This document shows positions 1,506-18,006 of a stretch of 20,000 bases of DNA, one piece after another (the stretch's first letter is position 1; every line of letters starts with the position of its first letter). The position numbers were made by a program, and so were the translations under genes. The notes beneath the pieces were generated by a model. It ran no database searches, was not told the DNA's origin, and saw only the letters and a list, made by a program, of their open reading frames with translations. The stretch is from an uncultured virus (IMG/VR IMGVR_UViG_3300008108_000086). Lineage: Duplodnaviria > Heunggongvirae > Uroviricota > Caudoviricetes. Location of the stretch: the IMG/VR virus record IMGVR_UViG_3300008108_000086, one strand, 5' to 3'.

Positions 1506-3134
1506 ATGTCAAACACAGCAATACAGTTAAAAAAATCAGGCGTAACAGGAAACACACCATCAGGTCTTGCATTTGGTGAGGTTGCTCTTAACTACGCCGA
1601 TGGTAAACTGTTTTATAAAAACAGTCTTGGTGGTACATCATACATATCCAACCAATTCTCGTTTGACACAATCAACTCAAACAACTCCCTAATATTTGCG
1701 GGAAGTGGTTCAGACACCTTGTCTTTTGTTGCAGGTAATAATGTTACCATAAGCACAAATACAACCACAAAAACAATCACAATCAATGCGTCAGTATCAG
1801 GTGGAAGTGACCCTGGTCCTGCGTTTGACCGTGCCAATGGTGCATTTGTAACTGCTAACTCAGCAGCCAGCTTTGCCAATGATGCTTTTTTAAGAGCTAA
1901 TGCATCCTATGATTCACAAAATACCACAGCATCGTTTGCCAACGGTGCCTTTGTGGTGGCCAATTCATCAGCAACTTTTGCTAACGGAGCTTTCGATAGA
2001 GCCAATGCGGCCTATAATGCTGCGAATACCGCCACAGACCCGTGGGTAAGAACTCAAGCAAATAATGCTTACGACAAAGCCAATTCAGCTGGTTCATTTG
2101 CCAACGGAGCATTCGATGTTGCCAATTCGGCAGCCAGCTTTGCTAATGGTGCATTCACACAAGCAAATTCTAACTATACAAGTGCTGTAACAAAATTAAA
2201 TGTAACTCATAGTGGTGCTTCAGCATATTTAATTGACCAATATTCAGGTAATAATCCATCAATTTATATTTCAGGTGGTGAAACAATAGCATTCAATCTT
2301 GATATATCTGGTCATCCATTTCTAATTCGTCAATCATCAGGTGGTACTAATATTTCTGATGGATTAACACACGTGTCATCTTCAGGTGTTGTAACAACAG
2401 GTTCCAATGCTCAAGGAAAAGAATCTGGAATATTATTTTGGAAAGTTCCTTTCTCTTTAGTTGAAAGTACATATGTTTATCAATGCCAATACCATAGTGG
2501 TATGGTTGGAAATATTATTATACAACAACCAGTTTCTTTTGTTGCTAGTAATACAACTTTGGCTTTTTCGCTGGCCAATGGTGCTTTTGATAGAGCCAAT
2601 TCAGCGGCATCATTTGCTAATGGTGCATTTGTAACAGCCAATTCTGGTGCCACGTTTGCTAATGGTGCTTTTGTAACAGCCAATTCTGGTGCATCATTTG
2701 CTAATGGTGCTTTTGATAGAGCCAATTCAGCGGCATCATTTGCTAATGGTTCTTTTGTAACAGCCAATTCTGGTGCCACGTTTGCTAATGGTGCTTTCAA
2801 TGCAGCTAATTCTGGTGCCATGTTTGCTAATGGTGCTTTCAATGCAGCTAATTCTGGTGCCATGTTTGCCAATGGTGCTTTTGATAGAGCCAATGCTGCA
2901 TATGCATTTGCAAATACAATTTCTGGAGGTTCTTCGGTTGATAATGTAGCTAGGAATAGTGCAAATTCAGCAGAATTTTTTGCTAATGGTGCCTTTATTA
3001 CAGCGAATTCGGCCGCAAGTTTTGCCAATGGTGCTTTTGATAGAGCCAATGCAGCCTTCGCTAAAGCTAACACAGGAACAACCGCACTCGATGTAAACTC
3101 TGATATTGTTGCCTTCACAATCGCCTTTAGTTGA
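1506..3134 (+). CDS. Tail fibre stalk protein (542 aa): Mtd_N-like N-terminal domain, ANGAF heptad repeats, cupredoxin-like domain, hydrophobic C-terminal peptide
   Basis: N-terminus IQLKKSG..P..LAFGEVALNYADGKLFYK resembles the major-tropism-determinant N-terminal type domain of phage fibres. Many ANSAASFANGAF repeats. GHPF...YQCQYHSGMVGNIII at about 2310-2522. Ends DIVAFTIAFS. Confidence 0.8.
   Translation: MSNTAIQLKKSGVTGNTPSGLAFGEVALNYADGKLFYKNSLGGTSYISNQFSFDTINSNNSLIFAGSGSDTLSFVAGNNVTISTNTTTKTITINASVSGGSDPGPAFDRANGAFVTANSAASFANDAFLRANASYDSQNTTASFANGAFVVANSSATFANGAFDRANAAYNAANTATDPWVRTQANNAYDKANSAGSFANGAFDVANSAASFANGAFTQANSNYTSAVTKLNVTHSGASAYLIDQYSGNNPSIYISGGETIAFNLDISGHPFLIRQSSGGTNISDGLTHVSSSGVVTTGSNAQGKESGILFWKVPFSLVESTYVYQCQYHSGMVGNIIIQQPVSFVASNTTLAFSLANGAFDRANSAASFANGAFVTANSGATFANGAFVTANSGASFANGAFDRANSAASFANGSFVTANSGATFANGAFNAANSGAMFANGAFNAANSGAMFANGAFDRANAAYAFANTISGGSSVDNVARNSANSAEFFANGAFITANSAASFANGAFDRANAAFAKANTGTTALDVNSDIVAFTIAFS
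2574..2915 (+). repeat. In-frame tandem array of 42-bp (14-aa) ANGAFxxANSxAxF units
   Basis: Exact 42-bp duplication 2780-2821/2822-2863. A near-exact copy of the stretch starting at 2577 recurs 126 bp later at 2703. Confidence 0.9.
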
Positions 3135-3137
3135 TAG

Positions 3138-3145
3138 AATAAATA
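3138..3145 (+). promoter_or_regulatory. Putative T4-type late promoter (AATAAATA)
   Basis: 7/8 match to TATAAATA in the intergenic gap, about 20 nt before ATG 3166, followed by AAGGA/AGGG SD-like sequence. Confidence 0.55.
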
Positions 3146-3165
3146 AAGGATAATAGGGAATTTAT

Positions 3166-3492
3166 ATGGCAAATACATTTAAAAATCAACTACAAGCAGC
3201 AGTCGGAACATCACCAGCAACCATTTATACTGCTGGTGCCAATGTGTCGACCACAGTTATTGGTATGACTATTGCAAACATACTAAACACAACCATAACA
3301 GCCAATGTGATATTGAATTCTGGTGGTTCAGACTACTATATGGTTAAGATGGCTGAGATTGAACCTGGCAATTCTTTAATCACTATCGGCGGTGAACAGA
3401 AATTAGTAATGAGAGCCAACGATGTTCTAAAAGTTTCAACAAGTAATGCTTCAGCAGCTGATGTTATTGTGAGTTTATTGGAAATAACATAA
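3166..3492 (+). CDS. Small beta-rich fibre adaptor protein, paralogue A1 (108 aa, MANTFKN... type)
   Basis: Alternating hydrophobic beta pattern. Shares TIYT / IAN / YY / DVLKV / terminal LEI motifs with 10266..10616 and 15785..16114. Confidence 0.75.
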   Translation: MANTFKNQLQAAVGTSPATIYTAGANVSTTVIGMTIANILNTTITANVILNSGGSDYYMVKMAEIEPGNSLITIGGEQKLVMRANDVLKVSTSNASAADVIVSLLEIT

Positions 3493-3493
3493 C

Positions 3494-5665
3494 ATGGAAT
3501 TTACTTACATTGGCAACCAAAATAAGAAGGATGTAAGGTTAACCGGTTCATTTGCTAATGGTGCATTTGTAACTGCTAACTCAGCAGCCTCTTTTGCTAA
3601 TGCGGCCTTCGATAGGGCCAATGCGGCCTTCTTACAGGCGAATACTAGTGGTGGTGGAGGCAGTAGTACACCAGTAACAATTTATTCTGATGTGTTTACT
3701 GCCAATGGTAATACGTCAACATTCAATTTAAGTACATCACCGGAAGATGAAAATTATATAATTGCAGTAGTCGATGGTATTACTCAATTAAGAAGTACGT
3801 ATACTGTTACAGGTAACGTGGTCACTTTTGATAGTGCATTTGATAATGGAGCCAACGTTGAAATAACAACCATCACTGGCGGCGGTGAAAGTCCATATGC
3901 AGCCAACCACGCCAATTTGGCATATGCACAGGCAAATGCTGCCTTCACGCAGGCAAATAATTCTACTGATACATGGGTAAGAACACAAGCTAACAGTGCG
4001 TTTGACAAAGCAAACTCGGCAGGTTCATTTGCTAATAGTTCTTTTGTAACTGCCAATGCAAGTTATGACCAAGCAAACACAGGTGCTTTATTTGCAAATG
4101 GTGCCTTCATAACAGCCAATTCTGGTGCATCATTTGCCAATGGTGCTTTCGATAGAGCCAATGCTGCTTATGCACAGGCTAATAATTCTACTGATACTTG
4201 GGTTAGGACTCAGGCCAATAATGCATACGATACGGCAAACTCGGCTCAAACATTTGCTAACGCAGCATTTATAACAGCAAACTCTGCGGCAAGTTTTGCT
4301 AACGGTGCTTATGCGGCCGCAAACTTAAAATTTAATACATCAGGTGGTACAATTTCTGGTGATGTTTCCATTACAGGAAATCTAAGTATATTAGGTAATG
4401 CATTCAGCACTAGTGCAACTCAAATTGTTGCAAATGATACACTCTTTATTATGGGTACAGGAAACTATTCAGGTGATGTACTTGATATTGGTTTTTCATC
4501 TCATTACAACGATGGTACCAATGCACACACAGGTATAATTCGAGATGCTGGCACCAAAGAATGGCATGTGTTTGAAGGTTATACACCTGAGGTTGGTGCA
4601 AACAATAGTATTGATATTAATCATGCATCATTTAAGATTGCAACACTTCAAGCAAATTTAAAATCAACAACCATAACGATTAAAGGTATAGATTTATTAC
4701 CTTATGTTAATAATGCATATGCAACGGCCAACTCTGGTGCATCCTTTGCTAACTCAGCATTCATTACAGCCAATGCATCATATGAATCCCAGAATACCAC
4801 AGCATCGTTTGCTAACGGTGCTTTCATTACAGCTAATGCGGCATTCAATGCAGCGAACAATGCAACCGATCCGTGGGTAAGAAATCAGGCTAACAACTCT
4901 TACAATACAGCTAACGGAGCATTTGTAACAGCCAATTCTGCTGCATCATTTGCTAATGGTGCTTTTGATAGAGCCAATGCTGCTTATGCAGCTGCAAATA
5001 CGGGTAGTGGAGTAGGTGGTGTATTAACAAGTTTTGTTGATACATTTACTGCGAATGGTATATCCAACAACTTCACATTATCAACAACACCAACGAATAA
5101 AAATATTACGTTTGTGTCTATACAAGGTGTATTACAACCAAAAGAAAGTTATAATATATCTGGTACCATATTAACATTTGATTCCACTCCACCAAATACA
5201 GCTTTTATTGAAATAACAACTTTGAATGGTGCATCTGATAATGCTGCCTTTATTGCAGCCAATGCTGCCTTTATTACAGCCAATTCTGGTGCATCATTTG
5301 CTAACGCAGCATTTATACAGGCTAATGCTGCATTCACTCAAGCAAATACTGCTTCAATAAGATACATCACTTTAAATGAAACTGGTAATATTGTCATAAA
5401 AACCGGAACAGTAAGATTTTATCCGCCTAGTAATATAGCTATAAATAATGTATACGCTAGTTTGAGCACCACATCAGCAAACACTTTTACTTTCGAGGTA
5501 GTTAAAAACGGGTCAGTAGTAGGAACATACAACATAGACTCTAACACAAATAAAATGACCGTAGCGGCAGCAAATATTAATTTAACTTCAAACGATTACT
5601 TAACAGTAAATATTACTAATGGGTCACAAGCAAGTGATTTAAGAATTGACTTAGAGTATAAATAG
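3494..5665 (+). CDS. Tail fibre stalk protein (723 aa) with ANGAF repeats, two FTA(N/D)G-type small beta domains and a C-terminal beta domain
   Basis: Starts MEFTYIGNQ, 1 nt after the A1 stop. Repeated domain FTANG..F.LST.P...V.G..Q...Y...G...TFDS at about 3677-3880 and 5027-5230. Central DIGF..HYNDG..HTGIIRDA fibre domain. C-terminal TGTVRFYPP...DYLTVNI...SDLRIDLEY domain. Confidence 0.85.
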   Translation: MEFTYIGNQNKKDVRLTGSFANGAFVTANSAASFANAAFDRANAAFLQANTSGGGGSSTPVTIYSDVFTANGNTSTFNLSTSPEDENYIIAVVDGITQLRSTYTVTGNVVTFDSAFDNGANVEITTITGGGESPYAANHANLAYAQANAAFTQANNSTDTWVRTQANSAFDKANSAGSFANSSFVTANASYDQANTGALFANGAFITANSGASFANGAFDRANAAYAQANNSTDTWVRTQANNAYDTANSAQTFANAAFITANSAASFANGAYAAANLKFNTSGGTISGDVSITGNLSILGNAFSTSATQIVANDTLFIMGTGNYSGDVLDIGFSSHYNDGTNAHTGIIRDAGTKEWHVFEGYTPEVGANNSIDINHASFKIATLQANLKSTTITIKGIDLLPYVNNAYATANSGASFANSAFITANASYESQNTTASFANGAFITANAAFNAANNATDPWVRNQANNSYNTANGAFVTANSAASFANGAFDRANAAYAAANTGSGVGGVLTSFVDTFTANGISNNFTLSTTPTNKNITFVSIQGVLQPKESYNISGTILTFDSTPPNTAFIEITTLNGASDNAAFIAANAAFITANSGASFANAAFIQANAAFTQANTASIRYITLNETGNIVIKTGTVRFYPPSNIAINNVYASLSTTSANTFTFEVVKNGSVVGTYNIDSNTNKMTVAAANINLTSNDYLTVNITNGSQASDLRIDLEYK

Positions 5666-5697
5666 AGTATAAATAGAGTATAAATAGAGCATAAATG
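5652..5697 (+). promoter_or_regulatory. Tandem 11-bp repeat (TAGAGTATAAA x3 plus TAGAGCATAAA) containing three perfect T4 late promoter boxes
   Basis: TATAAATA at 5657-5664, 5668-5675 and 5679-5686, with a degenerate CATAAATG at 5690-5697. The repeat overlaps the TAG stop (5663-5665) of the upstream fibre. Confidence 0.8.
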
Positions 5698-5720
5698 TTA
5701 AATAAAACAAAGGTATTTTT

Positions 5721-6044
5721 ATGGATTTTATAAAAATTTTTTACAATGGTTTACCTGCAAAAGTTTATAAACTTTTGTCAAGTATTCCTAATAACATTGA
5801 AAGTGATGTAGAAAGATTTAGTTATATACATAACCTTTTATCTGTTGATTTAGGTATTGAATCTAATGTATTGTTTGGATCAATTTCGGATATACAAGGA
5901 CTTTGTTATTTTTATACAGAACAACACAAATTAAATTTGATTTCTAATGAAAATTTTGAATTAGTATTTGACACGGACAGTATGATTGTAAAAGAAACAT
6001 TAACTGAATTTAGTGAAGAAACTCAAGAAACTCAAGGAATATAA
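5721..6044 (+). CDS. Hypothetical acidic protein (107 aa), first gene of AT-rich cassette
   Basis: AAGG SD about 8 nt upstream, directly after the late promoter array. Very AT-rich (14/60 G+C in line 5761-5820). Confidence 0.65.
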   Translation: MDFIKIFYNGLPAKVYKLLSSIPNNIESDVERFSYIHNLLSVDLGIESNVLFGSISDIQGLCYFYTEQHKLNLISNENFELVFDTDSMIVKETLTEFSEETQETQGI

Positions 6045-6046
6045 TA

Positions 6047-6940
6047 ATGTATGTGAAGTATAGAATCTCATCAAACACCGTTACTGCAAATGTAATATCG
6101 GATATTACAGGTATTATTGGTGGAACAATAACACAAGCGAATCAGCTGAGTGCTGGTGCTTCAGGAAATACTATTTTTTCCGGTAACTATCCTAGTGGTA
6201 CAATATATACAGTTTCTTTTACGGATGATGCCACAGCTTCGGTTATAAGTAAAAAAAATCATGCAAACACGTCATATCAATCATACATTTTATTAAGTGG
6301 TTCAACTGATACAACTTTTGGAGTAGGTATTAATGCAACTGCATGTGGATTAGGTAAAGACTGGAGTTCAGGATCAACAATTACTAATAGCACAACAGGT
6401 TTCTCAGATACAGTTTTACATTTAAAACAATATATTCCAACGGCGGACAAACCAGAAGAACTAATTATTATAGTTACAAATAAATCTCTTATTTTAATAC
6501 AATCCAATCATAATACTTGTATTGGATGGGTAGATATTACAACTAATGGTGTCGTTGAAAAATATACAACAAGCATGAGAACTATTTTATGTAATTTTAC
6601 CACTAGTAATGCTAAAGTTCCATATACATATAAATTATTAGGTGCATTATCCAGTTATGGATTAACAAATTATACTAAAATATTTAATGCTGCGCCTTTT
6701 ACATCAACACCAGATGCACCAATAATATCAGCAATATCTTTTTTAGCATTTGATGAAAATCGTACTCCAGTAATTATTGAAAATCCAGCGCTTGTATGTA
6801 ATCCTAATGCAGGAAATTATGTAAACTTCTTATATGGTGTGGTATCTATTCCTCCTGGACTTTTAAAAAGTAAATCACTATATAATACAAGTGGTGTAAA
6901 TAGAATTTCTTTTAGTAATTTTGCTTTTGTAACAGAATAG
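6047..6940 (+). CDS. Putative virion/tail-tip structural protein (297 aa)
   Basis: AAGGA SD upstream. S/T/N/G/I-rich beta-type composition. N-terminus MYVKYRIS resembles MLIKFSMP of the next gene. Confidence 0.65.
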   Translation: MYVKYRISSNTVTANVISDITGIIGGTITQANQLSAGASGNTIFSGNYPSGTIYTVSFTDDATASVISKKNHANTSYQSYILLSGSTDTTFGVGINATACGLGKDWSSGSTITNSTTGFSDTVLHLKQYIPTADKPEELIIIVTNKSLILIQSNHNTCIGWVDITTNGVVEKYTTSMRTILCNFTTSNAKVPYTYKLLGALSSYGLTNYTKIFNAAPFTSTPDAPIISAISFLAFDENRTPVIIENPALVCNPNAGNYVNFLYGVVSIPPGLLKSKSLYNTSGVNRISFSNFAFVTE

Positions 6941-6950
6941 GAATAAAAAA

Positions 6951-8402
6951 ATGTTGATAAAATTTAGTATGCCTCGGGCTGCCACTATGACAGACTTGTT
7001 ATGGAATCTCATGCAAGCAGTTTTTGTAACAGCAACCACGGCCGCAAATACAACTCCTACTATTACTAGAGTTTCCACTAGCAATGTGGCCAATACACAA
7101 GCTTCGCTTCTTGGAGTTGGTCCAGGTTGTTTTATTGAAGAAGTTATTTCTAATACTGAATCTGGTGGATGGACTTTAGGCCCAAATAATAACTTTACTC
7201 AAAGTGTGGTGCCAGCTGCCACTGTGGGTTCATACATACTACATCTTCAGACTTCAAATGGAAAAGCCAATACTAAATATTTTGCCATTGGTTGTGGCGG
7301 GGTCGCTGCTGGCAGCGGTGGCGCCAGCGTTTGGAATTCGGGCGTTCAGACTATTAATGACAACAGTGCTAATTGGCCAAATTGTGGTGTTTATGATGTT
7401 GGTTACGGAAGTTTACAGCGTATCCGGTCGATGGAGGGACTCAATGATGGTAGCTTTTTAGGATCGGACATTACACGAATTAGAAAATTAACCGCTGGGA
7501 CAAACAACACCACATGGGGCAGAAATATTTCTGCGGCGTCACCTTTTTCTCTACAATACTTTGCAAACCGATACAATGAATCAAATTTTGGTACCGCAAC
7601 TCGAACTCCATTTTATGTAGGCGCAACAGAAAATTATATTTTTTTAGTTCATGAAGGTGCAATTTGGTATTTTGGTACAAGAACCTCTCAGCCTTGGGAA
7701 GATGCCTATACTGATAACCCTTATTATGTTTCTTTTGGACATGCAGGTACAGCAGCAAACACAACTCATTCATATCATGAAACTTTTTCTAATCTAAATC
7801 ATGTGTTAGGCTCGCCAGGAGTAGGAGTTATCAATAGGTCGTTTACACAAGCATTTAGTAGAACAATCACCACAGCAAACACAAATTACGCAAGTAGTCC
7901 ACCAATGTTATATTATAATACGGTTGCTGGAAACCAGTTAGAAGCAAATAGTTTTTGGACAGTTACGGGTGGTAACCAAAACGCTTACGGTTCAGAAGGA
8001 TTTGATGCAATTTCAATGCAATTCGGCCGAGCCCAATCAACTGCTCTGGTTAACCTAAGGGCGAACTCAAATAATGCATTATCAGGAACACATATGCGTA
8101 ATACTTGGGATCATTTCAATGCGCCGTTTGATGGACCAAGCTTTGATACTACTACAGGTCTTATGGTGCCAACAATATATCCAATTAATTTTAGTGTTTC
8201 TGGAAATAGTGTTAATTCAGGTGGAAATTCAGGTGGTAGAGCACTGGGTATATACAAAGGACAACTTGGCATTGCTAACAACAGTCCTTTACTTAATTTA
8301 GCATCTTATATAATTGACGGATCAAATTATATACCAGTATTTGTTGGTAATTCCATGTTTCATTCTGCAAACACAGACTTATATTTTATAAGAGCAGCTT
8401 AA
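6951..8402 (+). CDS. Putative virion/tail-tip receptor-binding protein (483 aa)
   Basis: AGGA SD overlapping the upstream stop. G/N/S/T and aromatic-rich. Possibly a remote paralogue of 6047..6940. Confidence 0.7.
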   Translation: MLIKFSMPRAATMTDLLWNLMQAVFVTATTAANTTPTITRVSTSNVANTQASLLGVGPGCFIEEVISNTESGGWTLGPNNNFTQSVVPAATVGSYILHLQTSNGKANTKYFAIGCGGVAAGSGGASVWNSGVQTINDNSANWPNCGVYDVGYGSLQRIRSMEGLNDGSFLGSDITRIRKLTAGTNNTTWGRNISAASPFSLQYFANRYNESNFGTATRTPFYVGATENYIFLVHEGAIWYFGTRTSQPWEDAYTDNPYYVSFGHAGTAANTTHSYHETFSNLNHVLGSPGVGVINRSFTQAFSRTITTANTNYASSPPMLYYNTVAGNQLEANSFWTVTGGNQNAYGSEGFDAISMQFGRAQSTALVNLRANSNNALSGTHMRNTWDHFNAPFDGPSFDTTTGLMVPTIYPINFSVSGNSVNSGGNSGGRALGIYKGQLGIANNSPLLNLASYIIDGSNYIPVFVGNSMFHSANTDLYFIRAA

Positions 8403-8436
8403 TCATAAAACAAATTTTTAGTTATATAAAAATAAC

Positions 8437-8853
8437 ATGGCAATTTTATCATCGAATAAAAGGTCAATTGGTTTTAGTACTTCACCAATTAATCAAAGCA
8501 ATAATATAGTTCTAGCAGATACTACTAATGTTGCATCAAATGAATTACCTTTAAATCAATTAATAAATTTAACTACTTTTGACAAAATAAAGTCAATTGG
8601 TTTTAGTACTTCACCAATTAATCAAAGCAATAATATAGTTCTAGCAGATACCACTAATGTTGCATCAAATGAATTACCTTTAAATCAATTAATAAATTTA
8701 ACTACTTTTAACAAAATAAAGTTTATTAATCTTGAACAACCAATAGCTTTTGGTTCTCACACAGCACAGCAAGCAAATTCATTTATAATTAATGCATCTA
8801 GTACACCAAGCGTTCAAAGTAGTACTAGTAGTACTTTTTGGACAATAGGTTAA
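8437..8853 (+). CDS. Hypothetical protein (138 aa) with internal 43-aa duplication; ends in TFWTIG
   Basis: ORF on the same strand as the operon. SIGFSTSPINQSNNIVLADTTNVASNELPLNQLINLTTF(D/N)KIK occurs twice. Confidence 0.6.
   Translation: MAILSSNKRSIGFSTSPINQSNNIVLADTTNVASNELPLNQLINLTTFDKIKSIGFSTSPINQSNNIVLADTTNVASNELPLNQLINLTTFNKIKFINLEQPIAFGSHTAQQANSFIINASSTPSVQSSTSSTFWTIG
8463..8720 (+). repeat. 129-bp tandem direct duplication
   Basis: 8463-8591 vs 8592-8720 show two mismatches by eye (ACT/ACC synonymous; GAC/AAC, D to N). Confidence 0.95.
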
Positions 8854-8877
8854 ATGAATTTGATTGCGGATTTTTGC

Positions 8878-8885
8878 CATAAATA
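8878..8885 (+). promoter_or_regulatory. Putative T4-type late promoter (CATAAATA)
   Basis: 7/8 match to TATAAATA, intergenic, 27 nt before ATG 8913. Confidence 0.6.
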
Positions 8886-8912
8886 TAATTATAAAATAAA
8901 AAAAAATAGAAG

Positions 8913-10264
8913 ATGGCATTATTAAAAATTAAACCGTTTATTATAGATGATACAAAACTCGGCCTCATCTTTTGCTAATGGTGCATTTTTAGTTGCAAAT
9001 TCTGGTGCATCATTTGCCAATTCATCGTTCATAACAGCGAATTCATCATACGCATCACAAAATACTACAGCAACCTTTGCTAATGCGGCCTTTGATGCCG
9101 CTAATGCGGCTTTTAGTCAATCCAATACTAGTGCATCATTTGCCAATGGTGCATTTGATAGAGCTAATGCTGCTTATGCACAGGCTAATAATTCCACAGA
9201 TACATGGGTAAGAACACAGGCTAATACTGCATACGATACGGCAAATTCTGCGGCATCTTTTGCTAATGGTGCTTTTGGCCAAGCAAACTCGGCCGCAAGT
9301 TTTGCTAACGGTGCTTTTATTACCGCAAACACAGCATACAATTGGGGCAATCACGCTTCCGCTGGATATGCAACAACAATTACCTGTAACATTAGATACA
9401 CTAAATGAATTGGCAGCTGCATTAGGAAATGATGCAAATTTTAGTACCACGATTACAACTACATTAGGTGTAACAAATTCATTTGCCAACGGTGCTTTTT
9501 TAAGAGCTAATGCATCCTATATCGCACAAAATACCACAGCAAGTTTTGCTAATGGTGCCTTTGATAGAGCCAATTCAGCAGCATCATTTGCTAACGGAGC
9601 ATTTGTAACTGCTAACTCAGCAGCCAGTTTTGCAAATGGTTCTTTTGTAACAGCCAACTCGGCAGCTTCGTTTGCTAATGGTGCCTTTGATAGAGCCAAT
9701 TCAAGTTATGATGTTGCAAATACAGGTGCATCGTTTGCTAACGGTGCCTTTAATCAAGCAAACTCGGCCGCAAGCTTTGCAAATGGTTCTTTTGTAACAG
9801 CCAACAGTGGTGCAACATTTGCCAATGCGGCATTTGAACGTGCCAATGCAGCCTATGCTCAGGCAAATACTGGTGGCGGTTCTAGTTCAGATACTTGGGC
9901 AAGAGCACAAGCTAATGCTGCATTTGAAACAGCAAATTCAGCTTCGAACACAGCAAATTCTTTTACAGGCAACATTGCAGTCAACATAGATAATTTTACT
10001 GGTGATGGTACGACAACAAACTTCACCATGTCTACTGCACCAACAGATGCAAACAACGTTATCATCAACGTTAACGGTGTTATTCAATTAAAACAAGCAT
10101 ATACAATAACAGCAAATTCCACAACACTTACACTTTCATCAGCACCGGCCAATGGTGCCAAGGTCGATGCGATTATATTTAAGAGTGGTGCAGTGTCTGC
10201 AACATCAGGTGGTGGAACAACAAGAGCTCAGTCTATGACTATGAGCATAATATTCGGAGGATAA
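8913..10264 (+). pseudogene. Tail fibre stalk gene split by two frameshifts (true pseudogene or sequence/assembly error)
   Basis: ATG 8913 gives MALLKIKPFIIDDT then stops at 8976-8978. ANGAF repeats continue in the +1 frame from about 8956 to ...WGNHASAGYATT (9378). After another +1 shift, PVTLDTLNELAAALGNDANF starts at 9383 and the frame runs to ...TTRAQSMTMSIIFGG stop at 10264. The ORF-track entries 8947..9408 and 9260..10264 are fragments of this gene. Confidence 0.75.
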
Positions 10265-10265
10265 A

Positions 10266-10616
10266 ATGGCAGCACCAAATTTATTAACAAGTACAACAGT
10301 AATAGGAAAGACAGCATTGTCACAATTAACCACAATAACGGCTAACGTAATTACTGTATCTAGCAATACTGTGAGTAAGTTAAACGATATTATTTTAACT
10401 AACTACACCGGATCAAACGTTACAAGTAATGTGTTAATTAATAGGAGTTCAACTACATATTATATAGGTGGTAATATAAGCGTACCTCCATATTCGACAT
10501 TAGTATTATTAGGAAAAGATTCTTCATTATATTTAGAAGAAGGAGATGTGATACAAGCAAACGTATCTGCAAACGCTAGTGTCAGTATGGCAGCAAGTTA
10601 TGAATTAATGAGTTAA
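10266..10616 (+). CDS. Small fibre adaptor protein, paralogue A2 (116 aa, MAAPN... type)
   Basis: GGAGG SD within the upstream gene end. Motifs ILTN / YYIG / VPP.STL / LEEGDVI / SYEL align with A1 and A3. Confidence 0.75.
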   Translation: MAAPNLLTSTTVIGKTALSQLTTITANVITVSSNTVSKLNDIILTNYTGSNVTSNVLINRSSTTYYIGGNISVPPYSTLVLLGKDSSLYLEEGDVIQANVSANASVSMAASYELMS

Positions 10617-10618
10617 GT

Positions 10619-11569
10619 ATGAGACAACGGTCAAATTTTGGAGTAACAGGAGCATTAATTGCAACTACCAGTATAACTAGTGGAGTATACTCCAGCGGTG
10701 ACGCTGTTATGCTTTCTAAAACCGGTGTTTGGCCGGGTAGTGTATTACCTATAACTCCAACTGTTGACTACTTAGTTGTAGCCGGTGGCGGTGGCGGAGG
10801 TGCTACACCAAATGGAACAACAAACCGTTTTGGAGGTGGTGGCGGTGCCGGAGGTTACAGGTCATCAGTAACCGGTGAGTCATCTGGTGGGGGTGCATCT
10901 GCCGAATCTGTTCTTTCAGTAACTCCCGGAACACCCATAACAGTAACGGTGGGTGGCGGTGGTGCTAAAGGAACTAACGGTAATAATTCAGTGTTAGGTA
11001 ATATTACGTCTACTGGCGGCGGCGCAGGTGGCGGCGACTCTACAACAGGTGCCGCAGGCGGTTCTGGCGGTGGTGGACATAACAATACTAATGGGGGTGC
11101 TGGTACCGCAAATCAAGGCTATGCTGGCGCAAGAGGTCAAGACACTGGCTCTCCGTACAGTACAGGCGGCGGTGGCGGTGCAGCCCAAACACCTGCTCAA
11201 CCAACCGGCGCTGGTGGTGGAGTTGGTGGTAACGGAGTTTCAAGTAGTATAACAGGTACTGCAATTTATTATGCCGGAGGTGGCGGAGGTGGCGATAGAG
11301 CTGGCGGCGGTGCTGCCGGCGGCCTCGGAGGTGGCGGCGCCGGCTCGTCCGGAACTAATGCTACTGCTGGAACAACGAATACCGGCGGTGGCGGAGGTGG
11401 ACGAGGTGACGGAGTTGATGGAAGTGCTGCCGGAGGTTCAGGTATTGTCATTGTTCGTTATTCAGACATATATCAGGCCGCATCAAGTACAACAGGTTCA
11501 CCAACTGTTACTGTTTCGGGTGGGTATAGAGTATATAAGTGGACTACTTCAGGCTCAATAACATTCTAA
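10619..11569 (+). CDS. Glycine-rich adhesin / receptor-binding protein (316 aa)
   Basis: Short N-terminal SGVYS...GVWP segment, then VDYLVVAGGGGGG...GGGGAGGY...YYAGGGGGG...NTGGGGGG...GGSGIVIVRY. The polyglycine motifs recall PGII-sandwich adhesins such as T-even gp38. Confidence 0.8.
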   Translation: MRQRSNFGVTGALIATTSITSGVYSSGDAVMLSKTGVWPGSVLPITPTVDYLVVAGGGGGGATPNGTTNRFGGGGGAGGYRSSVTGESSGGGASAESVLSVTPGTPITVTVGGGGAKGTNGNNSVLGNITSTGGGAGGGDSTTGAAGGSGGGGHNNTNGGAGTANQGYAGARGQDTGSPYSTGGGGGAAQTPAQPTGAGGGVGGNGVSSSITGTAIYYAGGGGGGDRAGGGAAGGLGGGGAGSSGTNATAGTTNTGGGGGGRGDGVDGSAAGGSGIVIVRYSDIYQAASSTTGSPTVTVSGGYRVYKWTTSGSITF

Positions 11570-11575
11570 GAGAAC

Positions 11576-11583
11576 AATAAATA
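11576..11583 (+). promoter_or_regulatory. Putative T4-type late promoter (AATAAATA)
   Basis: 7/8 match, intergenic, 26 nt before ATG 11610. Confidence 0.55.
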
Positions 11584-11609
11584 CTGATAACACAACAAAG
11601 AAAATATAA

Positions 11610-12500
11610 ATGGCATTAACAACGATATTACCATCAGGTTTAAATTCAGCGAATGATTTTTCATCGTTGGTGCCGGCTGCCTACTCTCAGGCAAATGCAG
11701 CCTTCATACAGGCTAATGCTGCGTTCATACAATCCAACGCATCTTATACTGCACAAAATACAACTGCGTTATTCGCTAATGGTGCTTTCGATGCAGCCAA
11801 CTCTGGTGCATCGTTTGCCAATGTGGCCTTTAGTCATGCTAATGCGGCATTTGCTGCAGCAAATACAGGTTCTGGTGACGCATGGGCTAGAGACCAAGCC
11901 AATGCAGGATTCTTGCAAGCCAACTCGTCTTATACTGCACAGAATATAACCGCAGCATTTGCCAACTCAGCTTTCAGTCATGCTAATGCCGCATATGCAG
12001 CTGCAAATACGGGTGGTGGTGGAGGAGGTGGTGCTTCGGTTACTGTTGGTTCAATAGCACCTTCACCTGCAGCAAACGGATATTTGTGGTATGATGACAC
12101 AACAACTGGTGAATTGTTTGTATACTCATCCAATTCTTGGGTGTCTACAAGCATTATGCCAGCCACGAACGTAAATGATCCTGCAATTACAGGACCAACA
12201 GAAGCAAACGAAGCAACAACACAGACATATACTATTTCGAATTATAATGGTGCGTATGCATATATAATTGGTGTCACAGGAGGTTCAGTAACAAGAACAA
12301 ATCAGTCTATATACTGGACAATGCCATCAGTCACAACAAATACGACACACTATATGACAACTCAGGTTGTTTCTGGAGGCGTTACATCAGCAGTAGACAC
12401 AAGAACTGTTTTGGTTGTTAATTTAAATATATCTGACGCAGCTGTTATTGTATCTGACTTTTCAAGTACATATGCAAACGTAACTTTTGGATGGGCATAA
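11610..12500 (+). CDS. Short tail fibre stalk protein (296 aa): anchor N-terminus, ANAAF repeats, GYLWYD small domain, Ig-like C-terminal domain
   Basis: MALTTILPSGLNSANDFSSLVP N-terminus is related to that of 18415. Heptad repeats. APSPAANGYLWYDDTTTGELFVYSSNSWV at about 12033-12152. Confidence 0.8.
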   Translation: MALTTILPSGLNSANDFSSLVPAAYSQANAAFIQANAAFIQSNASYTAQNTTALFANGAFDAANSGASFANVAFSHANAAFAAANTGSGDAWARDQANAGFLQANSSYTAQNITAAFANSAFSHANAAYAAANTGGGGGGGASVTVGSIAPSPAANGYLWYDDTTTGELFVYSSNSWVSTSIMPATNVNDPAITGPTEANEATTQTYTISNYNGAYAYIIGVTGGSVTRTNQSIYWTMPSVTTNTTHYMTTQVVSGGVTSAVDTRTVLVVNLNISDAAVIVSDFSSTYANVTFGWA

Positions 12501-15134: not shown

Positions 15135-15514
15135 TGTTAACAAGTAAAACTGTTGAAATACAACCTCAAATGTTTAAGAAAGTTTATACTTTCTATGATG
15201 ACGTTGTTCAAGGTTATAAGGCCGAAAAGACCGAAAAAATATATAATTCTACTGTAGAATTTAATGGTTGGTTGTTTGATTCTGATGAAAAAAGCATAGG
15301 TAGAATGTCTAGGTATCTACAAATATCTAGTATCGGAATGTTAAAAGACCAATCAAATGGTATGTCAATAAATGATTCATGGCAAAAAAATTTCATTGAT
15401 AACAAAATTCAGTGGAAATTAAATGACAATACCATACAAGAAATTAGTGTTGAACAATTGTTTGAAGTTTATACTATGTGTGTTCAAAATATGTCCAACA
15501 ACTGGTTAAAATAA
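15134..15514 (+). CDS. DUF4376-like tail fibre assembly/chaperone protein (126 aa)
   Basis: VEFNGWLFDSDEKSIGRM...IQWKLNDNTIQEISVEQL matches the DUF4376 pattern (G..FD.D..S..R...W...DN....L....L). TAATG-coupled to the upstream RBP. Confidence 0.7.
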   Translation: MLTSKTVEIQPQMFKKVYTFYDDVVQGYKAEKTEKIYNSTVEFNGWLFDSDEKSIGRMSRYLQISSIGMLKDQSNGMSINDSWQKNFIDNKIQWKLNDNTIQEISVEQLFEVYTMCVQNMSNNWLK

Positions 15515-15526
15515 TAGGTAACAATC

Positions 15527-15775
15527 ATGGCTTTCCCATCAAGTCCAACAGACGGACAAACATATACACAGTTTGGAAGAACCTTTACTTATAGTAGCAC
15601 ACTGACTGCTTGGAGAACATTTAAGAATAGTGATATTGCCACACTAGGTTCAATCACAAATCTACAACTTACAGGCGGCTCAAGTAATCAAATTATAACA
15701 ACCAATGGTGCAGGCCAATTAAGTTTCATAAATCTACCAACAACTCTGGAACCATTCTTGTTAATGGGTTCGTAA
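15527..15775 (+). CDS. Mini fibre/connector protein (82 aa)
   Basis: MAFPSSPTDGQTYT..GRTFTY....AW N-terminal module, GGSSNQIITTNGAGQLSF fibre motif and hydrophobic C-terminal LEPFLLMGS. AGGT SD upstream. Confidence 0.75.
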   Translation: MAFPSSPTDGQTYTQFGRTFTYSSTLTAWRTFKNSDIATLGSITNLQLTGGSSNQIITTNGAGQLSFINLPTTLEPFLLMGS

Positions 15776-15784
15776 GGAAAAAAT

Positions 15785-16114
15785 ATGGCATCAGTATATA
15801 AAGTATTAGGACAATCAAACCCAGCTTCAGCGACAGCAACAACATTGTATACAGTACCTGCGGCTAATACAGCAGTTATTTCAACATTAAACATATGTAA
15901 TCTTTCGACTACAGGTAGTACGTTTAGATTGGCTATAAGACCTGCTGGCGCAACTCTTGCTAATACACATTATTTGGCATACGATACTCCTGTTGCAGGG
16001 TCTGATTCAATCGCACTTACGTTAGGTGTCACACTATCAGCAACAGATGTATTAACAGTATATGCAAACAATGCCTCAATGACTTTTTCAGCATTCGGTA
16101 CGGAGATTTATTAA
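15785..16114 (+). CDS. Small fibre adaptor protein, paralogue A3 (109 aa, M..YKVLGQ type)
   Basis: AAGGA SD. TTLYTVP / ICN / HYLAYD / DVLTV / GTEI motifs align with A1 and A2. Confidence 0.75.
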   Translation: MASVYKVLGQSNPASATATTLYTVPAANTAVISTLNICNLSTTGSTFRLAIRPAGATLANTHYLAYDTPVAGSDSIALTLGVTLSATDVLTVYANNASMTFSAFGTEIY

Positions 16115-18006
16115 TGACGGTTAAAAAGTATTCTAAGAATAATATTCCTAGAAGAAACTACAACTATGGCACTGAGGGTGACCTAAGATTAATAAGAGCC
16201 ACAGGTGGTACAGAAAGTACAGTTGGTGCTTATAAGATACACACCTTTACATCAAACGGAACTTTTACAATTACACAAGGATCATACCAAGAAATTGATT
16301 ATTTTGCAATTGCCGGTGGTGGGCCAGCTGGTCGAAACGTAGATGCAAACGGTTGCGGCGGTGGCGGTGCTGGCGGAGCTCTAATGCATTGGGTGGGATT
16401 AAACGCAACGGATCTTTATCCTTTCAAATTTAGTCAGTGTATCGGACCAGAAATGTACACACAATCTGGTGATGTTTGGACAGTAAATGTGGGTTTAGGA
16501 GGAACAGCATTAGACAATAATAGCAGCAACAATTCTGGCGGTGATACCTGGATATTAAAAAATGGAGCTGAACAATTAAGGTGTTATGCTGGCGGCGGTG
16601 GCGGTGGCGGAAGTACCAAGTTTGTGGGTTATAATGGCGGATGTTCTGGAGGAACTGCTGGCGCTGCTGGCGCAGGAAATACAGGAACACCAAACACATG
16701 GGTGTCTAGTCCAGGTTATAGTATATTAACAAATGAACTTCAGTATCAATTTACTTACGGAAAAACAAACTGGCCTTACAAACAAGGCAATGGTAATAGT
16801 GTTATTGGTGTAACTGGTGTAAACTCAAGAAGTAATACAGCTGGTGGTTGTTTTGCGCCTAGTCCATACTATTGGACTGGAGCTAATAACACTGATACAA
16901 TTAGAGGAGCAACAAACGCCAATTTTACTGGATATGGAATCAGAACAACTTTTGCTGGTGTATATCAAACATATGGAGATGGAGGTTACTGCGGCACTAC
17001 ATCAATATATACAGTTCGACCAATACCGACACCAACAACACCTGGTTCGGGTGGCCACTCTGTGCCGATTGCCACGGCCGGTGCCGGTGGAAACGGATCA
17101 GATGGTATAGTAATTTTTAGATATCTAATGAACAAAACTGTCGCAGCTGCAAATGTTGAATTGTTAATGGTAGCTGGCGGTGGCGGCCAAGGTTCAAACA
17201 TTCCTGGCCCAGGCGGCGGTGGAGGTTCAGTTATATATTATGGAAACGAAACAGGCAATACTGGTGGATCATTAACTCTCTACAATGGAACATATGGTGT
17301 AACTGTTGGCGCAGGCGGCGCTTTAGCCACCTCGGCCACAGTATCAAATTTAGGAGGAGCTTCCTTTGTTACTGGTATTCCTTGTGACACTGTAATTAAT
17401 TACGGTATACCGAAAGCAAATACTTTTGGTGGTTTTATTGCTCTAGGTGGAGGATCTAAATTCAGAGCTCTTGAAGAATTACATGGTTCAGGTCATGGTG
17501 TTCGTGATAATCAAGGAGCATTTGCATTTGGATTGCCAAATCCAGACCATGGCAACCGTGGTGGTCTGGGTGCTGCGGCCGTTTCTGGCGGTGGTGGCGG
17601 CGCAGGTAATACTGGTGGTTCTGGAGTAGCATCAACATCAGGCGGCAATGGAGGTATTGGTAAAGCATTTTCTATAAGTGGCACATCGACTTATTATGGT
17701 GGCGGTGGAGGAGGAGGAAAATCAACAGTAGGTGGAGTGAATTCTACTGGTGGTCTTGGTGGTGGAGCAAACGGATTTAATGGAACAGCAACAACAACTG
17801 CTAGCGGAACAGTTAATACAGGTGGTGGTGGCGGTGGTGGTTATAGTGCTACGACAGGTGGTCAAGGCGGTTCAGGTATTGTAATACTCAGATATCCGGA
17901 CAGTTATCCTGCTGCAAACGGAACAACAGGTTCACCAACTATCACAACATCAGGTGGTTGGAGAACTTATACATTTACACAATCAGGATCAATTTCTTTT
18001 GGTTAA
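16114..18006 (+). CDS. Glycine-rich adhesin / receptor-binding protein with two Gly-rich domains (630 aa)
   Basis: Domain 1 about 16192-17127 (ATGG..YKIHTFTSNGTF..IAGGG...GSDGIVIFRY). Domain 2 about 17152-18003 (VELLMVAGGG...GGSGIVILRYP...GGWRTYTFTQSGSISF). The C-terminal ~45 aa are similar to those of 10619..11569. Confidence 0.8.
   Translation: MTVKKYSKNNIPRRNYNYGTEGDLRLIRATGGTESTVGAYKIHTFTSNGTFTITQGSYQEIDYFAIAGGGPAGRNVDANGCGGGGAGGALMHWVGLNATDLYPFKFSQCIGPEMYTQSGDVWTVNVGLGGTALDNNSSNNSGGDTWILKNGAEQLRCYAGGGGGGGSTKFVGYNGGCSGGTAGAAGAGNTGTPNTWVSSPGYSILTNELQYQFTYGKTNWPYKQGNGNSVIGVTGVNSRSNTAGGCFAPSPYYWTGANNTDTIRGATNANFTGYGIRTTFAGVYQTYGDGGYCGTTSIYTVRPIPTPTTPGSGGHSVPIATAGAGGNGSDGIVIFRYLMNKTVAAANVELLMVAGGGGQGSNIPGPGGGGGSVIYYGNETGNTGGSLTLYNGTYGVTVGAGGALATSATVSNLGGASFVTGIPCDTVINYGIPKANTFGGFIALGGGSKFRALEELHGSGHGVRDNQGAFAFGLPNPDHGNRGGLGAAAVSGGGGGAGNTGGSGVASTSGGNGGIGKAFSISGTSTYYGGGGGGGKSTVGGVNSTGGLGGGANGFNGTATTTASGTVNTGGGGGGGYSATTGGQGGSGIVILRYPDSYPAANGTTGSPTITTSGGWRTYTFTQSGSISFG

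What the first reader, a model, noticed from the sequence alone, without database searches (positions are those of the whole stretch)
3090..16200. Three-fold repeated 'C-terminal peptide -> small adaptor -> next fibre' connector grammar with three diverged adaptor paralogues
Seen: three different fibre genes end in a short hydrophobic peptide: DIVAFTIAFS (to 3134), TTRAQSMTMSIIFGG (to 10264) and LEPFLLMGS (to 15775). Each is immediately followed by a 108-116 aa beta-rich protein (3166, 10266, 15785). These three align by eye (T(I/L)YT or VIT; h-h-x-N; (Y/H)Y; D-V-(L/I); terminal E-(I/L)) despite low identity. Each is then tightly coupled to a gene with its own distinctive short N-terminal segment (MEFTYIGNQ; MRQRSNFG..SGVYS..GVWP; MTVKKYSKNNI). 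Inference: each adaptor is a two-faced socket that binds the C-terminal plug of the upstream fibre and the N-terminal peptide of the downstream one. The three paralogues would be orthogonal connector types, letting stalks and adhesin heads be chained and swapped as non-covalent parts. I know of no experimental description of this connector family.
Basis: partly seen in the sequence, partly recalled or inferred. Interest (0 to 1): 0.8.

Follow-up and report, generated by a model that had tools for sequence, protein, structure and literature searches.

The report
Plug-and-socket adaptors chaining phage fibres
Three related small proteins in this phage sit between tail-fibre genes whose ends carry matching short tags, a pattern repeated across many phages, which suggests a sequence code for how fibre pieces are clipped together, although binding itself has not been shown.

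Summary
Three homologous proteins of 108, 116 and 109 aa (hhalign 92-99% probability) each follow a gene that ends in a short alternating hydrophobic peptide. Each is tightly coupled to a next gene with its own N-terminal peptide.

In 187 other loci, 135 of 150 unique cases have an upstream protein ending in one of four tag classes, against 5 of 1471 background frames. The tag classes follow the adaptor tree: 6 and 3 changes, against about 50-65 when shuffled. Only the last 9-12 residues of the otherwise mosaic flanking proteins are conserved. Twenty-two proteins carry an N-tag of one class and a C-tag of another, which implies chains. Glycine-rich heads occur behind three adaptor classes, and the N-tag follows the adaptor class.

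The adaptor model is a generic small jelly-roll (pLDDT 92.5). No solved structure matches by sequence, and there is no Pfam or NCBIfam family; the only match is phrog_1276 ("unknown function"). In cyanophage S-SCSM1 a homologue follows the gp37-like long fibre and is named "virion protein".

Physical binding is untested: the one complex prediction gave no answer. There are exceptions, namely a class with no coupled downstream gene and fused forms with no tagged neighbour.

Earlier scan notes describe a different joint (DGGxF), which is also present here.

Verdict: a probable new fibre-connector family; interest 0.72.

The parts
1506..3134 (+). Fibre protein 1 (542 aa, SFANGAF repeats). Its last 10 residues, DIVAFTIAFS (3102-3131), are the class I C-terminal tag.
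   Evidence: (tail-fibre PHROGs). The tag is conserved in 24 close loci while the preceding 100 aa vary.
3166..3492 (+). Adaptor A1 (108 aa), class I jelly-roll protein.
   Evidence: phrog_1276 positions 1-111, E 2.3e-8. AF2 pLDDT 92.5, all beta. 240 close homologues.
3494..5665 (+). Next fibre (723 aa). N-terminal tag MEFTYIGNQ (3494-3520), class I N-tag (M-x-[YF]-..-IGN). It starts 1 nt after the A1 stop and has no C-terminal tag.
8947..10264 (+). Fibre protein 3, read here as two frames (8947-9408 and 9260-10264) because 38 nt present in the nearest record are missing between 9381 and 9382. Ends with the class II tag TTRAQSMTMSIIFGG (10217-10261).
10266..10616 (+). Adaptor A2 (116 aa), class II paralogue. 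Starts 1 nt after the fibre stop.
   Evidence: BLASTP to A1 E 9e-8. Class profile against class I: 98.6%, E 9.6e-16.
10619..11569 (+). Glycine-rich head protein 1 (316 aa, Pfam Gly_rich_2). N-tag MRQRSNFG (10619-10642).
   Evidence: In the AF2 model residues 1-23 have pLDDT < 50 and the rest is confident. Weak fold matches to the Bxb1 tail tip and the Pam3 fibre.
15527..15775 (+). 82-aa protein ending in the class III tag LEPFLLMGS (15746-15772). A counterpart in phiPsal1 (86 aa) ends ALMLMGG.
15785..16114 (+). Adaptor A3 (109 aa), class III paralogue.
   Evidence: phrog_1276 E 9.2e-8. Class profile against class I: 97.4%, E 1e-11.
16114..18006 (+). Glycine-rich head protein 2 (630 aa, two Gly_rich_2 stretches). 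N-tag MTVKKYSKNNI (16114-16146). Its start overlaps the A3 stop (TTAATGA).

Best explanation
The three small genes encode paralogues of a widespread, uncharacterised phage jelly-roll protein (the N-terminal domain family of phrog_1276). I read it as a virion-borne docking adaptor at the far end of a fibre segment.

Proposed mechanism, none of which is shown:
- The adaptor recognises the 8-10-residue alternating hydrophobic C-terminal strand ('tag') of the preceding protein, probably by adding that strand to a sheet or groove of the jelly-roll.
- It carries the next module. In fused forms the link is covalent. In split forms it holds the short, class-specific N-terminal peptide of the gene translated right after it.
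- Diverged classes (three here, at least four overall) would keep several joints in one virion from cross-pairing.
- They would also let shafts and heads be exchanged by recombination at the conserved junction.

What is shown: homology of the three proteins, the fold class, the tag grammar and its co-variation, doubly tagged proteins, head swapping, and the virion label of one homologue.

What is inferred: every physical contact, the stoichiometry, and orthogonality.
For: 1. Homology. BLASTP; hhalign of class profiles 98.6 / 97.4 / 92.4%.

2. Family size and shape. 4508 clusters at 50% identity match at E <= 1e-3. Most are standalone at 104-116 aa. 16 of the best 150 are 216-625 aa with the domain always at residues 1 to about 110, followed by Laminin_G_3, Lcl_C, FG-GAP or RCC1 propellers, or glycine-rich tails.

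3. Tag grammar. 135 of 150 unique cases are tagged, against 5 of 1471 background frames. Matched class pairs: I/I 53, II/II 11, III/III 16.

4. Co-variation on a tree of 147 adaptors. Upstream class changes 6 times (132 labelled; the ten printed of 200 shuffles gave 61-68). Downstream class changes 3 times, the minimum (111 labelled; shuffles 48-56).

5. Only the junction is conserved. In 24 close loci the identities are: adaptor 87%, upstream last 12 aa 85%, upstream previous 100 aa 52%, downstream first 12 aa 75%, downstream next 100 aa 44%. In 32 diverse class I loci only three tag columns reach 90%.

6. Chains. 22 proteins (12 unique) carry N-tag I plus C-tag II or III, between two adaptors.

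7. Head swapping. Glycine-rich heads occur behind class I, II and III adaptors, and the N-tag follows the adaptor class.

8. The same layout appears in named podo-, sipho- and myoviruses: HMO-2011, HTVC203P, Ochrobactrum OC, phiPsal1, P-SSM2.

9. S-SCSM1. A gp37-like long fibre ends ...PFILALGGN and is followed by the 112-aa SSCSM1_27 'virion protein' (profile E 1.5e-11), then another tail fibre. The paper reports 45 proteins found by mass spectrometry in CsCl-purified virions, 13 of unknown function (section read).

10. The N-tag region of the glycine-rich head is disordered on its own in the AF2 model (residues 1-23, pLDDT < 50).

11. Start-stop spacing of -1 to +2 nt suggests coupled translation.
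Against: - No contact has been shown or predicted.
- Few changes on a tree can arise from linkage of neighbouring genes without any interaction.
- The motif classes were defined after looking at the same data.
- Class IV (31 unique adaptors): the next gene lies 79-104 nt away and looks unrelated to fibres. In phiPsal1 a 200-nt gap follows. So a downstream partner is not universal.
- All five fused forms examined follow an ORF of >= 832 aa ending ...LRRLAG[LVI][KNR], with no hydrophobic tag. No tagged ORF was found in two such records, though these are only 14-16% complete.
- The fused glycine-rich form P0261 shows no BLAST similarity to the window's glycine-rich protein.
- The AF2 monomer is a complete, confident sandwich with no obviously missing strand.
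- The 'virion protein' name of SSCSM1_27 is taken from the record. The paper's figure marking the detected proteins could not be seen, and the supplementary table read lists only BLAST hits.
- 15 of 150 cases had no recognisable tag.
Confidence: 0.55

Rival explanations
1. A tip cap or assembly chaperone of the upstream fibre only. The jelly-roll binds the C-terminal tag to help the fibre fold or trimerise, and may stay on as a cap. This would resemble tail-fibre assembly proteins encoded just after fibre genes. The next gene's product would attach elsewhere.
For: - The position directly after a fibre gene is the classical place for fibre assembly proteins (my own knowledge of T4 gp38 and Mu/P2/lambda Tfa; T4 gp38 as an assembly factor is stated in PMC6851490, passages read).
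- The upstream tag is the most general feature. Class IV and phiPsal1 have a tag and an adaptor but no coupled downstream gene.
- In S-SCSM1 the gene sits where gene 38 sits.
Against: - Fused forms carry lectin or propeller domains behind the same domain, which fits a structural carrier better than a chaperone.
- The downstream N-tag follows adaptor class even when the head family is the same.
- Doubly tagged proteins exist.
- The S-SCSM1 homologue carries a virion label.
- No Pfam match to fibre-assembly families at E <= 0.1.
Confidence: 0.22
2. The jelly-roll is itself the receptor-binding tip, as C1q/TNF-like knobs are. The flanking tags are only its attachment site.
For: - The fold resembles trimeric knobs and decoration proteins: KHP40 cement Z 9.8, C1q Z 7.9, TNF family Z 7.6-7.9.
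- It is the last fibre-module gene in class IV and in phiPsal1.
Against: - It is the most conserved element of the module (87% against 44-52% for neighbouring segments). Receptor binders are usually the most variable.
- Fused forms place known binding-type domains behind it.
Confidence: 0.08
3. The grammar is only a conserved recombination cassette. The adaptor gene and about 30 nt on each side would be kept together by linkage and serve as a crossover point for module exchange, with no tag-adaptor contact.
For: - A sharp drop in conservation on both sides of the junction.
- Highly mosaic flanking genes (upstream frames of 66 to >998 aa).
Against: - Tags stay conserved as peptides between adaptors only about 39% identical (upstream last 12 aa 52% against 25% for the previous 100 aa) and between unrelated phage types. 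DNA similarity should be too low there to guide recombination (inference; DNA identity was not measured).
- The alternating large/small residue pattern is a protein-level feature.
Confidence: 0.1

Closest known systems
gp38 adhesin capping the gp37 long-tail-fibre tip of T2/S16-type phages (PDB 6F45; PMC6851490, passages read)
   Same: - A separate small protein is encoded right after the distal fibre gene and attaches non-covalently to the fibre's C-terminal end.
- It presents a glycine-rich receptor-binding part.
- In S-SCSM1 the adaptor occupies the gene-38 position after a gp37-like fibre.
- In this window two adaptors are followed by glycine-rich proteins.
   Different: - gp38 attaches through a three-helix bundle with conserved tryptophans that fit pockets on the gp37 beta-helix, and it is one polypeptide.
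- Here the candidate attachment unit is an all-beta jelly-roll.
- The fibre end is a short hydrophobic tag, and the head is usually a separate polypeptide.
- No sequence or fold match to 6F45 was returned.
T4 long-tail-fibre joints (gp34-gp35-gp36-gp37) and the DGGxF / Mtd_N-like joints noted earlier in this scan (e1-5830902 and others)
   Same: Multi-protein fibres are clipped together roughly in gene order through short conserved terminal elements. That other joint type also occurs in this window: ORFs ending DGGQF and DGGSF, with the next gene starting ...GEVALNYADGKLFYKN.
   Different: There the C-terminal peptide meets an N-terminal domain of the next fibre protein directly. Here a third, separate jelly-roll protein lies between the two, and the tags are hydrophobic strands in at least four classes.
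Adapter proteins of branched tail-spike systems (K1-5 type), as discussed for CW02 in PMC4819975 (passages read)
   Same: A small protein serves as the attachment point for interchangeable receptor-binding proteins.
   Different: Those adapters sit on the tail and carry the spikes. No relation in sequence or fold was tested or found here, and the position here is at the far end of a fibre.
Bacillus exosporium anchoring: the TNF-like ExsFA/BxpB binding N-terminal peptides of BclA or F-Anchor fibres (PDB 9h3d, 7r5i, listed)
   Same: A small jelly-roll protein that holds a terminal peptide of a fibre. These were among the Foldseek matches (E 2.8e-3 to 5.2e-3).
   Different: Weak, generic fold resemblance only (TM 0.41-0.45), in a different biological setting. 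This is an analogy of mechanism, not membership.

Membership tests
phrog_1276 (unknown function), N-terminal ~110 positions | Significant match to profile positions 1 to about 111 | tested here: met
   A1 E 2.3e-8 (1-111 of 325) and A3 E 9.2e-8. Class IV members 2.6e-6 and 1.2e-10. A2 has no direct hit but is linked through hhalign to class I at 98.6%.
T2/S16-type gp38 adhesin | N-terminal three-helix attachment domain with conserved tryptophans | tested here: not met
   The AF2 model of A1 is nine beta strands with no helix. Feature taken from PMC6851490.
T2/S16-type gp38 adhesin | Encoded directly after the gp37-type distal fibre gene | tested here: met
   S-SCSM1 ORF26 (T4-like gp37 in the paper's Tables S1/S2) is followed by the adaptor homologue ORF27.
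T2/S16-type gp38 adhesin | Polyglycine-II sandwich head | tested here: inconclusive
   The downstream proteins are Gly_rich_2. The fold search of the model returned the Bxb1 tail tip and the Pam3 fibre at weak scores, and 6F45 was not listed.
Tail-fibre assembly chaperones (Pfam Caudo_TAP and relatives; names recalled) | Match to a family model | tested here: inconclusive
   No such Pfam or NCBIfam match for A1-A3 at E <= 0.1 / 0.01. A missing match does not exclude a distant relation.
C1q/TNF-like trimeric jelly-roll | Fold match standing clearly above unrelated folds; trimer | tested here: inconclusive
   Z 7.6-7.9, no better than many other jelly-rolls (best 9.8, KHP40 cement). Oligomeric state was not determined.
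DGGxF / Mtd_N-like (T4 gp36-gp37-type) joint | C-terminal D-[GS]-G-x-F peptide followed by an Mtd_N-like N-terminal domain in the next gene | tested here: not met
   The three tags here are DIVAFTIAFS, MTMSIIFGG and PFLLMGS, and a separate protein intervenes. The DGGxF type is present elsewhere in the window (ORFs ending at 729 and 1501).

The most novel reading that the evidence does not exclude
A general, readable 'connector code' for phage fibres. It would consist of a family of small jelly-roll sockets in at least four mutually exclusive classes. Each class would pair a C-terminal strand tag with an N-terminal peptide tag. The code would be used by myo-, sipho- and podoviruses of many hosts to fix the order in which separate proteins assemble into branched or serial fibres, and to swap receptor-binding heads. 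Fibre architecture could then be predicted from gene ends alone, and the tags used as orthogonal parts for building fibres.
Probability: 0.4. Interest if true: 0.85.

Novelty: new variant of a known kind. Interest (0 to 1): 0.72.

Why it matters
Tail fibres decide which bacteria a phage can infect. In most environmental phages they are built from many unannotated proteins whose order of assembly is unknown.

If these small proteins are class-specific joints, three things follow:
- The ends of neighbouring genes would tell which pieces connect. This would help annotate thousands of 'hypothetical' and 'virion structural' proteins (4508 clusters).
- It would explain how heads are exchanged between fibres.
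- It would offer small orthogonal connectors for fibre engineering in laboratory phages.

The family includes abundant marine phages of SAR11, SAR116, Roseobacter and cyanobacteria. No member matched a solved structure by sequence.

Tried and rejected
- **Complex prediction.** A1 x3 with the last 60 aa of fibre 1 x3, both as 32-row alignments. Score 0.02, verdict 'no answer', controls not run. This is neither for nor against binding.
- **Whole genome.** None is held for the window.
- **Locus search with alignment A1.** I used the three single proteins instead.
- **Megablast of 3000-12000 against phages.** No match.
- **PDB by sequence.** Adaptor profile: best E 0.28, unrelated. Both glycine-rich proteins: nothing.
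- **Pfam and NCBIfam.** Nothing significant for the adaptors.
- **'Longer' homologues of A1 by word search.** None. Fused forms belong to another subfamily.
- **Rosetta-stone link to Gly_rich_2.** The fused glycine-rich form P0261 has no BLAST similarity to 10619-11569, so I dropped this link. I keep only 'fused to diverse heads'.
- **Glycine-rich heads as gp38-type polyglycine sandwiches.** Not supported by the fold search. Kept only as an analogy.
- **Fused forms docking on a tagged neighbour.** The gene before them has no tag, and no tagged ORF was found in two incomplete records.
- **Exact 41-nt junction of the 38-nt gap in viral contigs.** No other copy, so I cannot tell a real deletion from an assembly error.
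- **Papers.** Searches gave no description of this protein family or of the tags. The source of the older label 'virion structural protein' (traced to HTVC010P in a record note) could not be found. PMC4819975 (passages read) does not treat this gene.
- **ESM Atlas.** Only its own unnamed or 'virion structural' clusters.

Full report
**What is in the window.**
All long ORFs lie on the + strand and form one continuous tail-fibre module.
- PHROG and Pfam matches name tail-fibre families, Gly_rich_2, He_PIG and Laminin_G_3.
- The nine elements of the finding are at the stated places.
- The three small ORFs (A1 3166-3492, A2 10266-10616, A3 15785-16114) are preceded by ORFs ending DIVAFTIAFS, TTRAQSMTMSIIFGG and LEPFLLMGS.
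- They are followed, at +1, +2 and -1 nt, by genes beginning MEFTYIGNQ, MRQRSNFG and MTVKKYSKNNI.

Two corrections to the description:
- The third upstream gene encodes only 82 aa.
- The second fibre gene is read in two frames here. 38 nt present in the nearest held record (G001, which shares 78% of the window's sampled words) are missing between 9381 and 9382. In G001, and in more distant homologues, the gene is one open frame.

**The three small proteins are paralogues.**
- BLASTP links A1 to A2 (E 9e-8) and weakly to A3 (E 0.011), but not A2 to A3.
- Profiles built separately for each class from other loci match each other by hhalign: 98.6% (I/II), 97.4% (I/III) and 92.4% (II/III).
- A1 and A3 match positions 1-111 of phrog_1276, 'unknown function'.
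- No Pfam or NCBIfam family matches.

**Fold.**
- With a 14-row alignment, AF2 gives a confident nine-strand all-beta model (pLDDT 92.5).
- Against solved structures it is a generic small jelly-roll. Best VIA Z is 9.8 (KHP40 trimeric cement protein), then HDT1/nucleoplasmin cores, the HFTV1 turret, Ena spore-appendage subunits (9.4-8.9), and C1q/TNF at 7.6-7.9.
- Foldseek gives no match at E <= 1e-3.
- No solved chain matches by sequence (best E 0.28).
- Against predicted viral structures it matches 100 models at E <= 1e-3. Most are about 105-120 aa and several are named 'virion (structural) protein'.

**Size and shape of the family.**
- A profile search of 1.84 billion representatives gives 4508 clusters at E <= 1e-3.
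- Most are standalone proteins of 104-116 aa.
- Sixteen of the best 150 are 216-625 aa with the domain at the very N-terminus. It is followed by Laminin_G_3 (3), Lcl_C, an FG-GAP propeller, an RCC1 propeller, a glycine-rich tail, a second copy of the domain, or unassigned sequence.
- Named carriers of the standalone form include podoviruses of SAR116, SAR11 and Roseobacter, the myovirus Melnitz, T4-like Rhizobium and Ochrobactrum phages, cyanomyoviruses and the actinobacterial phage phiPsal1.

**The grammar outside the window.**
In HMO-2011, HTVC203P and Ochrobactrum phage OC the small gene follows a tail-fibre-type gene. Those genes end ...GFAVAMAIAL...GFAIAMAIAL and ...ALALSIALG. The small gene is followed by a gene starting MPYIGQ, MPFIGNQP or MAYLGNTP.

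I fetched 184 viral-contig loci with A1, A2 and A3 as queries. I then located adaptor ORFs with an HMM of alignment A1 and read off the end of the preceding frame and the start of the next gene.
- There are 220 adaptor ORFs in 188 sources, which reduce to 150 unique adaptor-plus-upstream combinations.
- With motif patterns written after inspection, 135 of 150 upstream ends fall in four classes:
  - I: ...A-h-A-I-A-L-G or AFTIAFS, 62 cases
  - II: ...M-x-M-x-I-I-F-G-G, 17 cases
  - III: ...F-L-L-M-G, 24 cases
  - IV: ...VILTINFVSA, 32 cases
- Of the remaining 15, 13 are 'other' and 2 have no upstream frame.
- Only 5 of 1471 other + strand frames of >= 80 aa match.
- Downstream starts form matching classes: I M-A-Y-I-G-N, II M-R-x-R-S-N-Y-G, III M-x-V-K-K.
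- Matched up/down pairs number 53, 11 and 16.
- On a FastTree of 147 unique adaptors, the upstream class changes 6 times (132 labelled) and the downstream class 3 times (111 labelled). Shuffled labels gave 61-68 and 48-56 in the ten printed of 200 shuffles each.
- Some of the six changes are an overlap of my patterns: ...AIAMAIVFGG was scored as class I.
- Few changes on a tree do not prove co-evolution, because neighbours are inherited together.

**Evidence that goes beyond linkage.**
1. Only the junction is conserved. Among 24 close loci (231 pairs) mean identity is 87% for the adaptor, 85% for the upstream last 12 aa against 52% for the previous 100 aa, and 75% for the downstream first 12 aa against 44% for the next 100 aa. 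The same trend holds in the other classes.
2. In an alignment of the last 60 aa of 32 diverse class I upstream proteins, only three tag columns reach 90%. Upstream frames range from 66 to more than 998 aa.
3. Thirty-one of 188 sources hold two or more adaptors. In these, 22 proteins (12 unique) lie between two adaptors and carry an N-tag of class I plus a C-tag of class II (9) or class III (13). That is what a serial chain predicts.
4. Glycine-rich heads (HMM of alignment A6, E <= 1e-5) follow adaptors after class I tags (6 of 59), class II tags (5 of 14) and class III tags (8 of 21). Three of the six 'class I' cases carry ...VFGG tags that really belong with class II. In each case the N-terminal peptide is the one typical of the adaptor class, not of the head family.
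5. In the AF2 model of the window's glycine-rich protein (pLDDT 86), residues 1-23, which include the N-tag, have pLDDT below 50 while the body is confident.

**Virion presence.**
- In Synechococcus phage S-SCSM1 the profile finds one member, SSCSM1_27 (112 aa, E 1.5e-11).
- It follows the 1478-aa long tail fibre, which the paper's Tables S1/S2 call T4 gp37-like and which ends ...NSVTPFILALGGN. Another tail-fibre gene comes after it.
- The record names SSCSM1_27 'virion protein'.
- The paper reports 45 proteins detected by mass spectrometry in CsCl-purified particles, 13 of unknown function (PMC9602691; section 'Virion-associated proteins' and methods passages read).
- Table S1 lists only hypothetical BLAST hits for ORF27. 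I therefore infer that the name comes from detection. The figure that marks the detected ORFs could not be seen.
- Older 'virion structural protein' labels trace to HTVC010P (record note), and I could not find their basis.

**Exceptions.**
- In class IV (31 unique adaptors) the upstream protein is fibre-like (phrog_38233, E 2.1e-9). The next gene lies 79-104 nt away and matches only tape-measure-type motifs.
- In phiPsal1 the adaptor ends the module.
- In a further scan with the fused form P0215 (79 loci), five fused proteins (216-662 aa) all follow a frame of >= 832 aa ending ...LRRLAG[LVI][KNR], with no hydrophobic tag.
- In the same scan, 32 of the 38 unique standalone rows follow an ...(A/S)IALG end.
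- Two records with fused forms hold no tagged ORF of >= 70 aa, but they are estimated to be only 14-16% complete.
- A third such record has both a fused form and a standalone form. The standalone form is preceded by ...AAALSIALG.

**Reading.**
The most economical account is a docking adaptor at the distal end of a fibre segment.
- The alternating pattern of the tags (large hydrophobic residues on one face, Ala/Ser/Thr/Gly on the other) suits a beta strand laid into a groove or onto a sheet edge of the jelly-roll.
- The next module is then carried either covalently (fused forms) or through its N-terminal peptide (split forms).
- The diverged classes would keep several joints in one particle from cross-pairing.
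- Every physical step is inference. The single complex prediction allowed gave no verdict.
- The main rival is a cap or assembly factor that binds only the upstream tag. I give the adaptor reading 0.55 and this rival 0.22.

**Relation to what is known.**
- Functionally nearest is the gp38 adhesin that caps gp37 in T2/S16-type phages, which has the same gene position in S-SCSM1. But gp38 docks through a helical bundle with tryptophans, and no sequence or fold match was found.
- T4-type joints, and the DGGxF / Mtd_N-like joints noted earlier in this scan on other DNA, link two fibre proteins directly with no third protein. That joint type is also visible here (see below).
- I found no paper describing this family or its tags in the searches. 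The library lacks most subscription journals.
- I rate it a new variant of a known kind: non-covalent fibre connectors.

Noticed in passing
window 9381/9382 (fibre gene 8947-10264): 38 nt present in the nearest held record (which reads ...ATTIYVSGEIANLVNSAPVTLDTLNEL...) are missing here. This splits the fibre gene into two frames. It could be a real deletion or an assembly error. No other contig carries the junction.
   Followed up: partly
window 1-729, 776-1501, 1506-: A second joint type is present. The ORFs end ...LDGGQF and ...KDGGSF, and the next fibre starts MSNTAIQLKKSGVTGNTPSGLAFGEVALNYADGKLFYKN. This is the DGGxF / Mtd_N-like pattern that earlier scan notes liken to the T4 gp36-gp37 joint.
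   Followed up: no
window 11610-12500 and 18415-19998: Both proteins that come after the glycine-rich heads begin with a shared peptide: ...SANDFSSLVPAAYSQANAAF and ...SSKDFSSLVPSAFAKANAAF. Both glycine-rich proteins end ...T(T/Q)SGSI(T/S)F. This may be a third kind of junction.
   Followed up: no
window 1506-3134, residues ~226-340: An inserted globular domain in fibre 1 is shared with cyanophage 'baseplate wedge tail fiber connector' proteins (phrog_677 E 2.2e-23; tblastn 31-44% identity). The motif YQCQYHSGM recalls a cupredoxin copper site. That resemblance is from memory, and no Pfam match supports it.
   Followed up: partly
window 8437-8853: A 138-aa ORF holds an almost perfect tandem duplication of 44 aa (SIGFSTSPINQSNNIVLADTTNVASNELPLNQLINLTTF(D/N)KIK). 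It lies in a low-GC stretch (30%, against about 40% around it).
   Followed up: no
L246 and L211 (viral contigs), gene before the adaptor: The class I tag is followed by about nine more hydrophobic residues (...AIAMSIALGLVLTPLIIG), so here the tag is not strictly C-terminal.
   Followed up: no
window 5001-7000 and 8001-9000: GC content is 30-31%, against 38-50% elsewhere. The genes there (5721-6940, 8437-8853) have no family match, which suggests recently acquired inserts in the fibre module.
   Followed up: no
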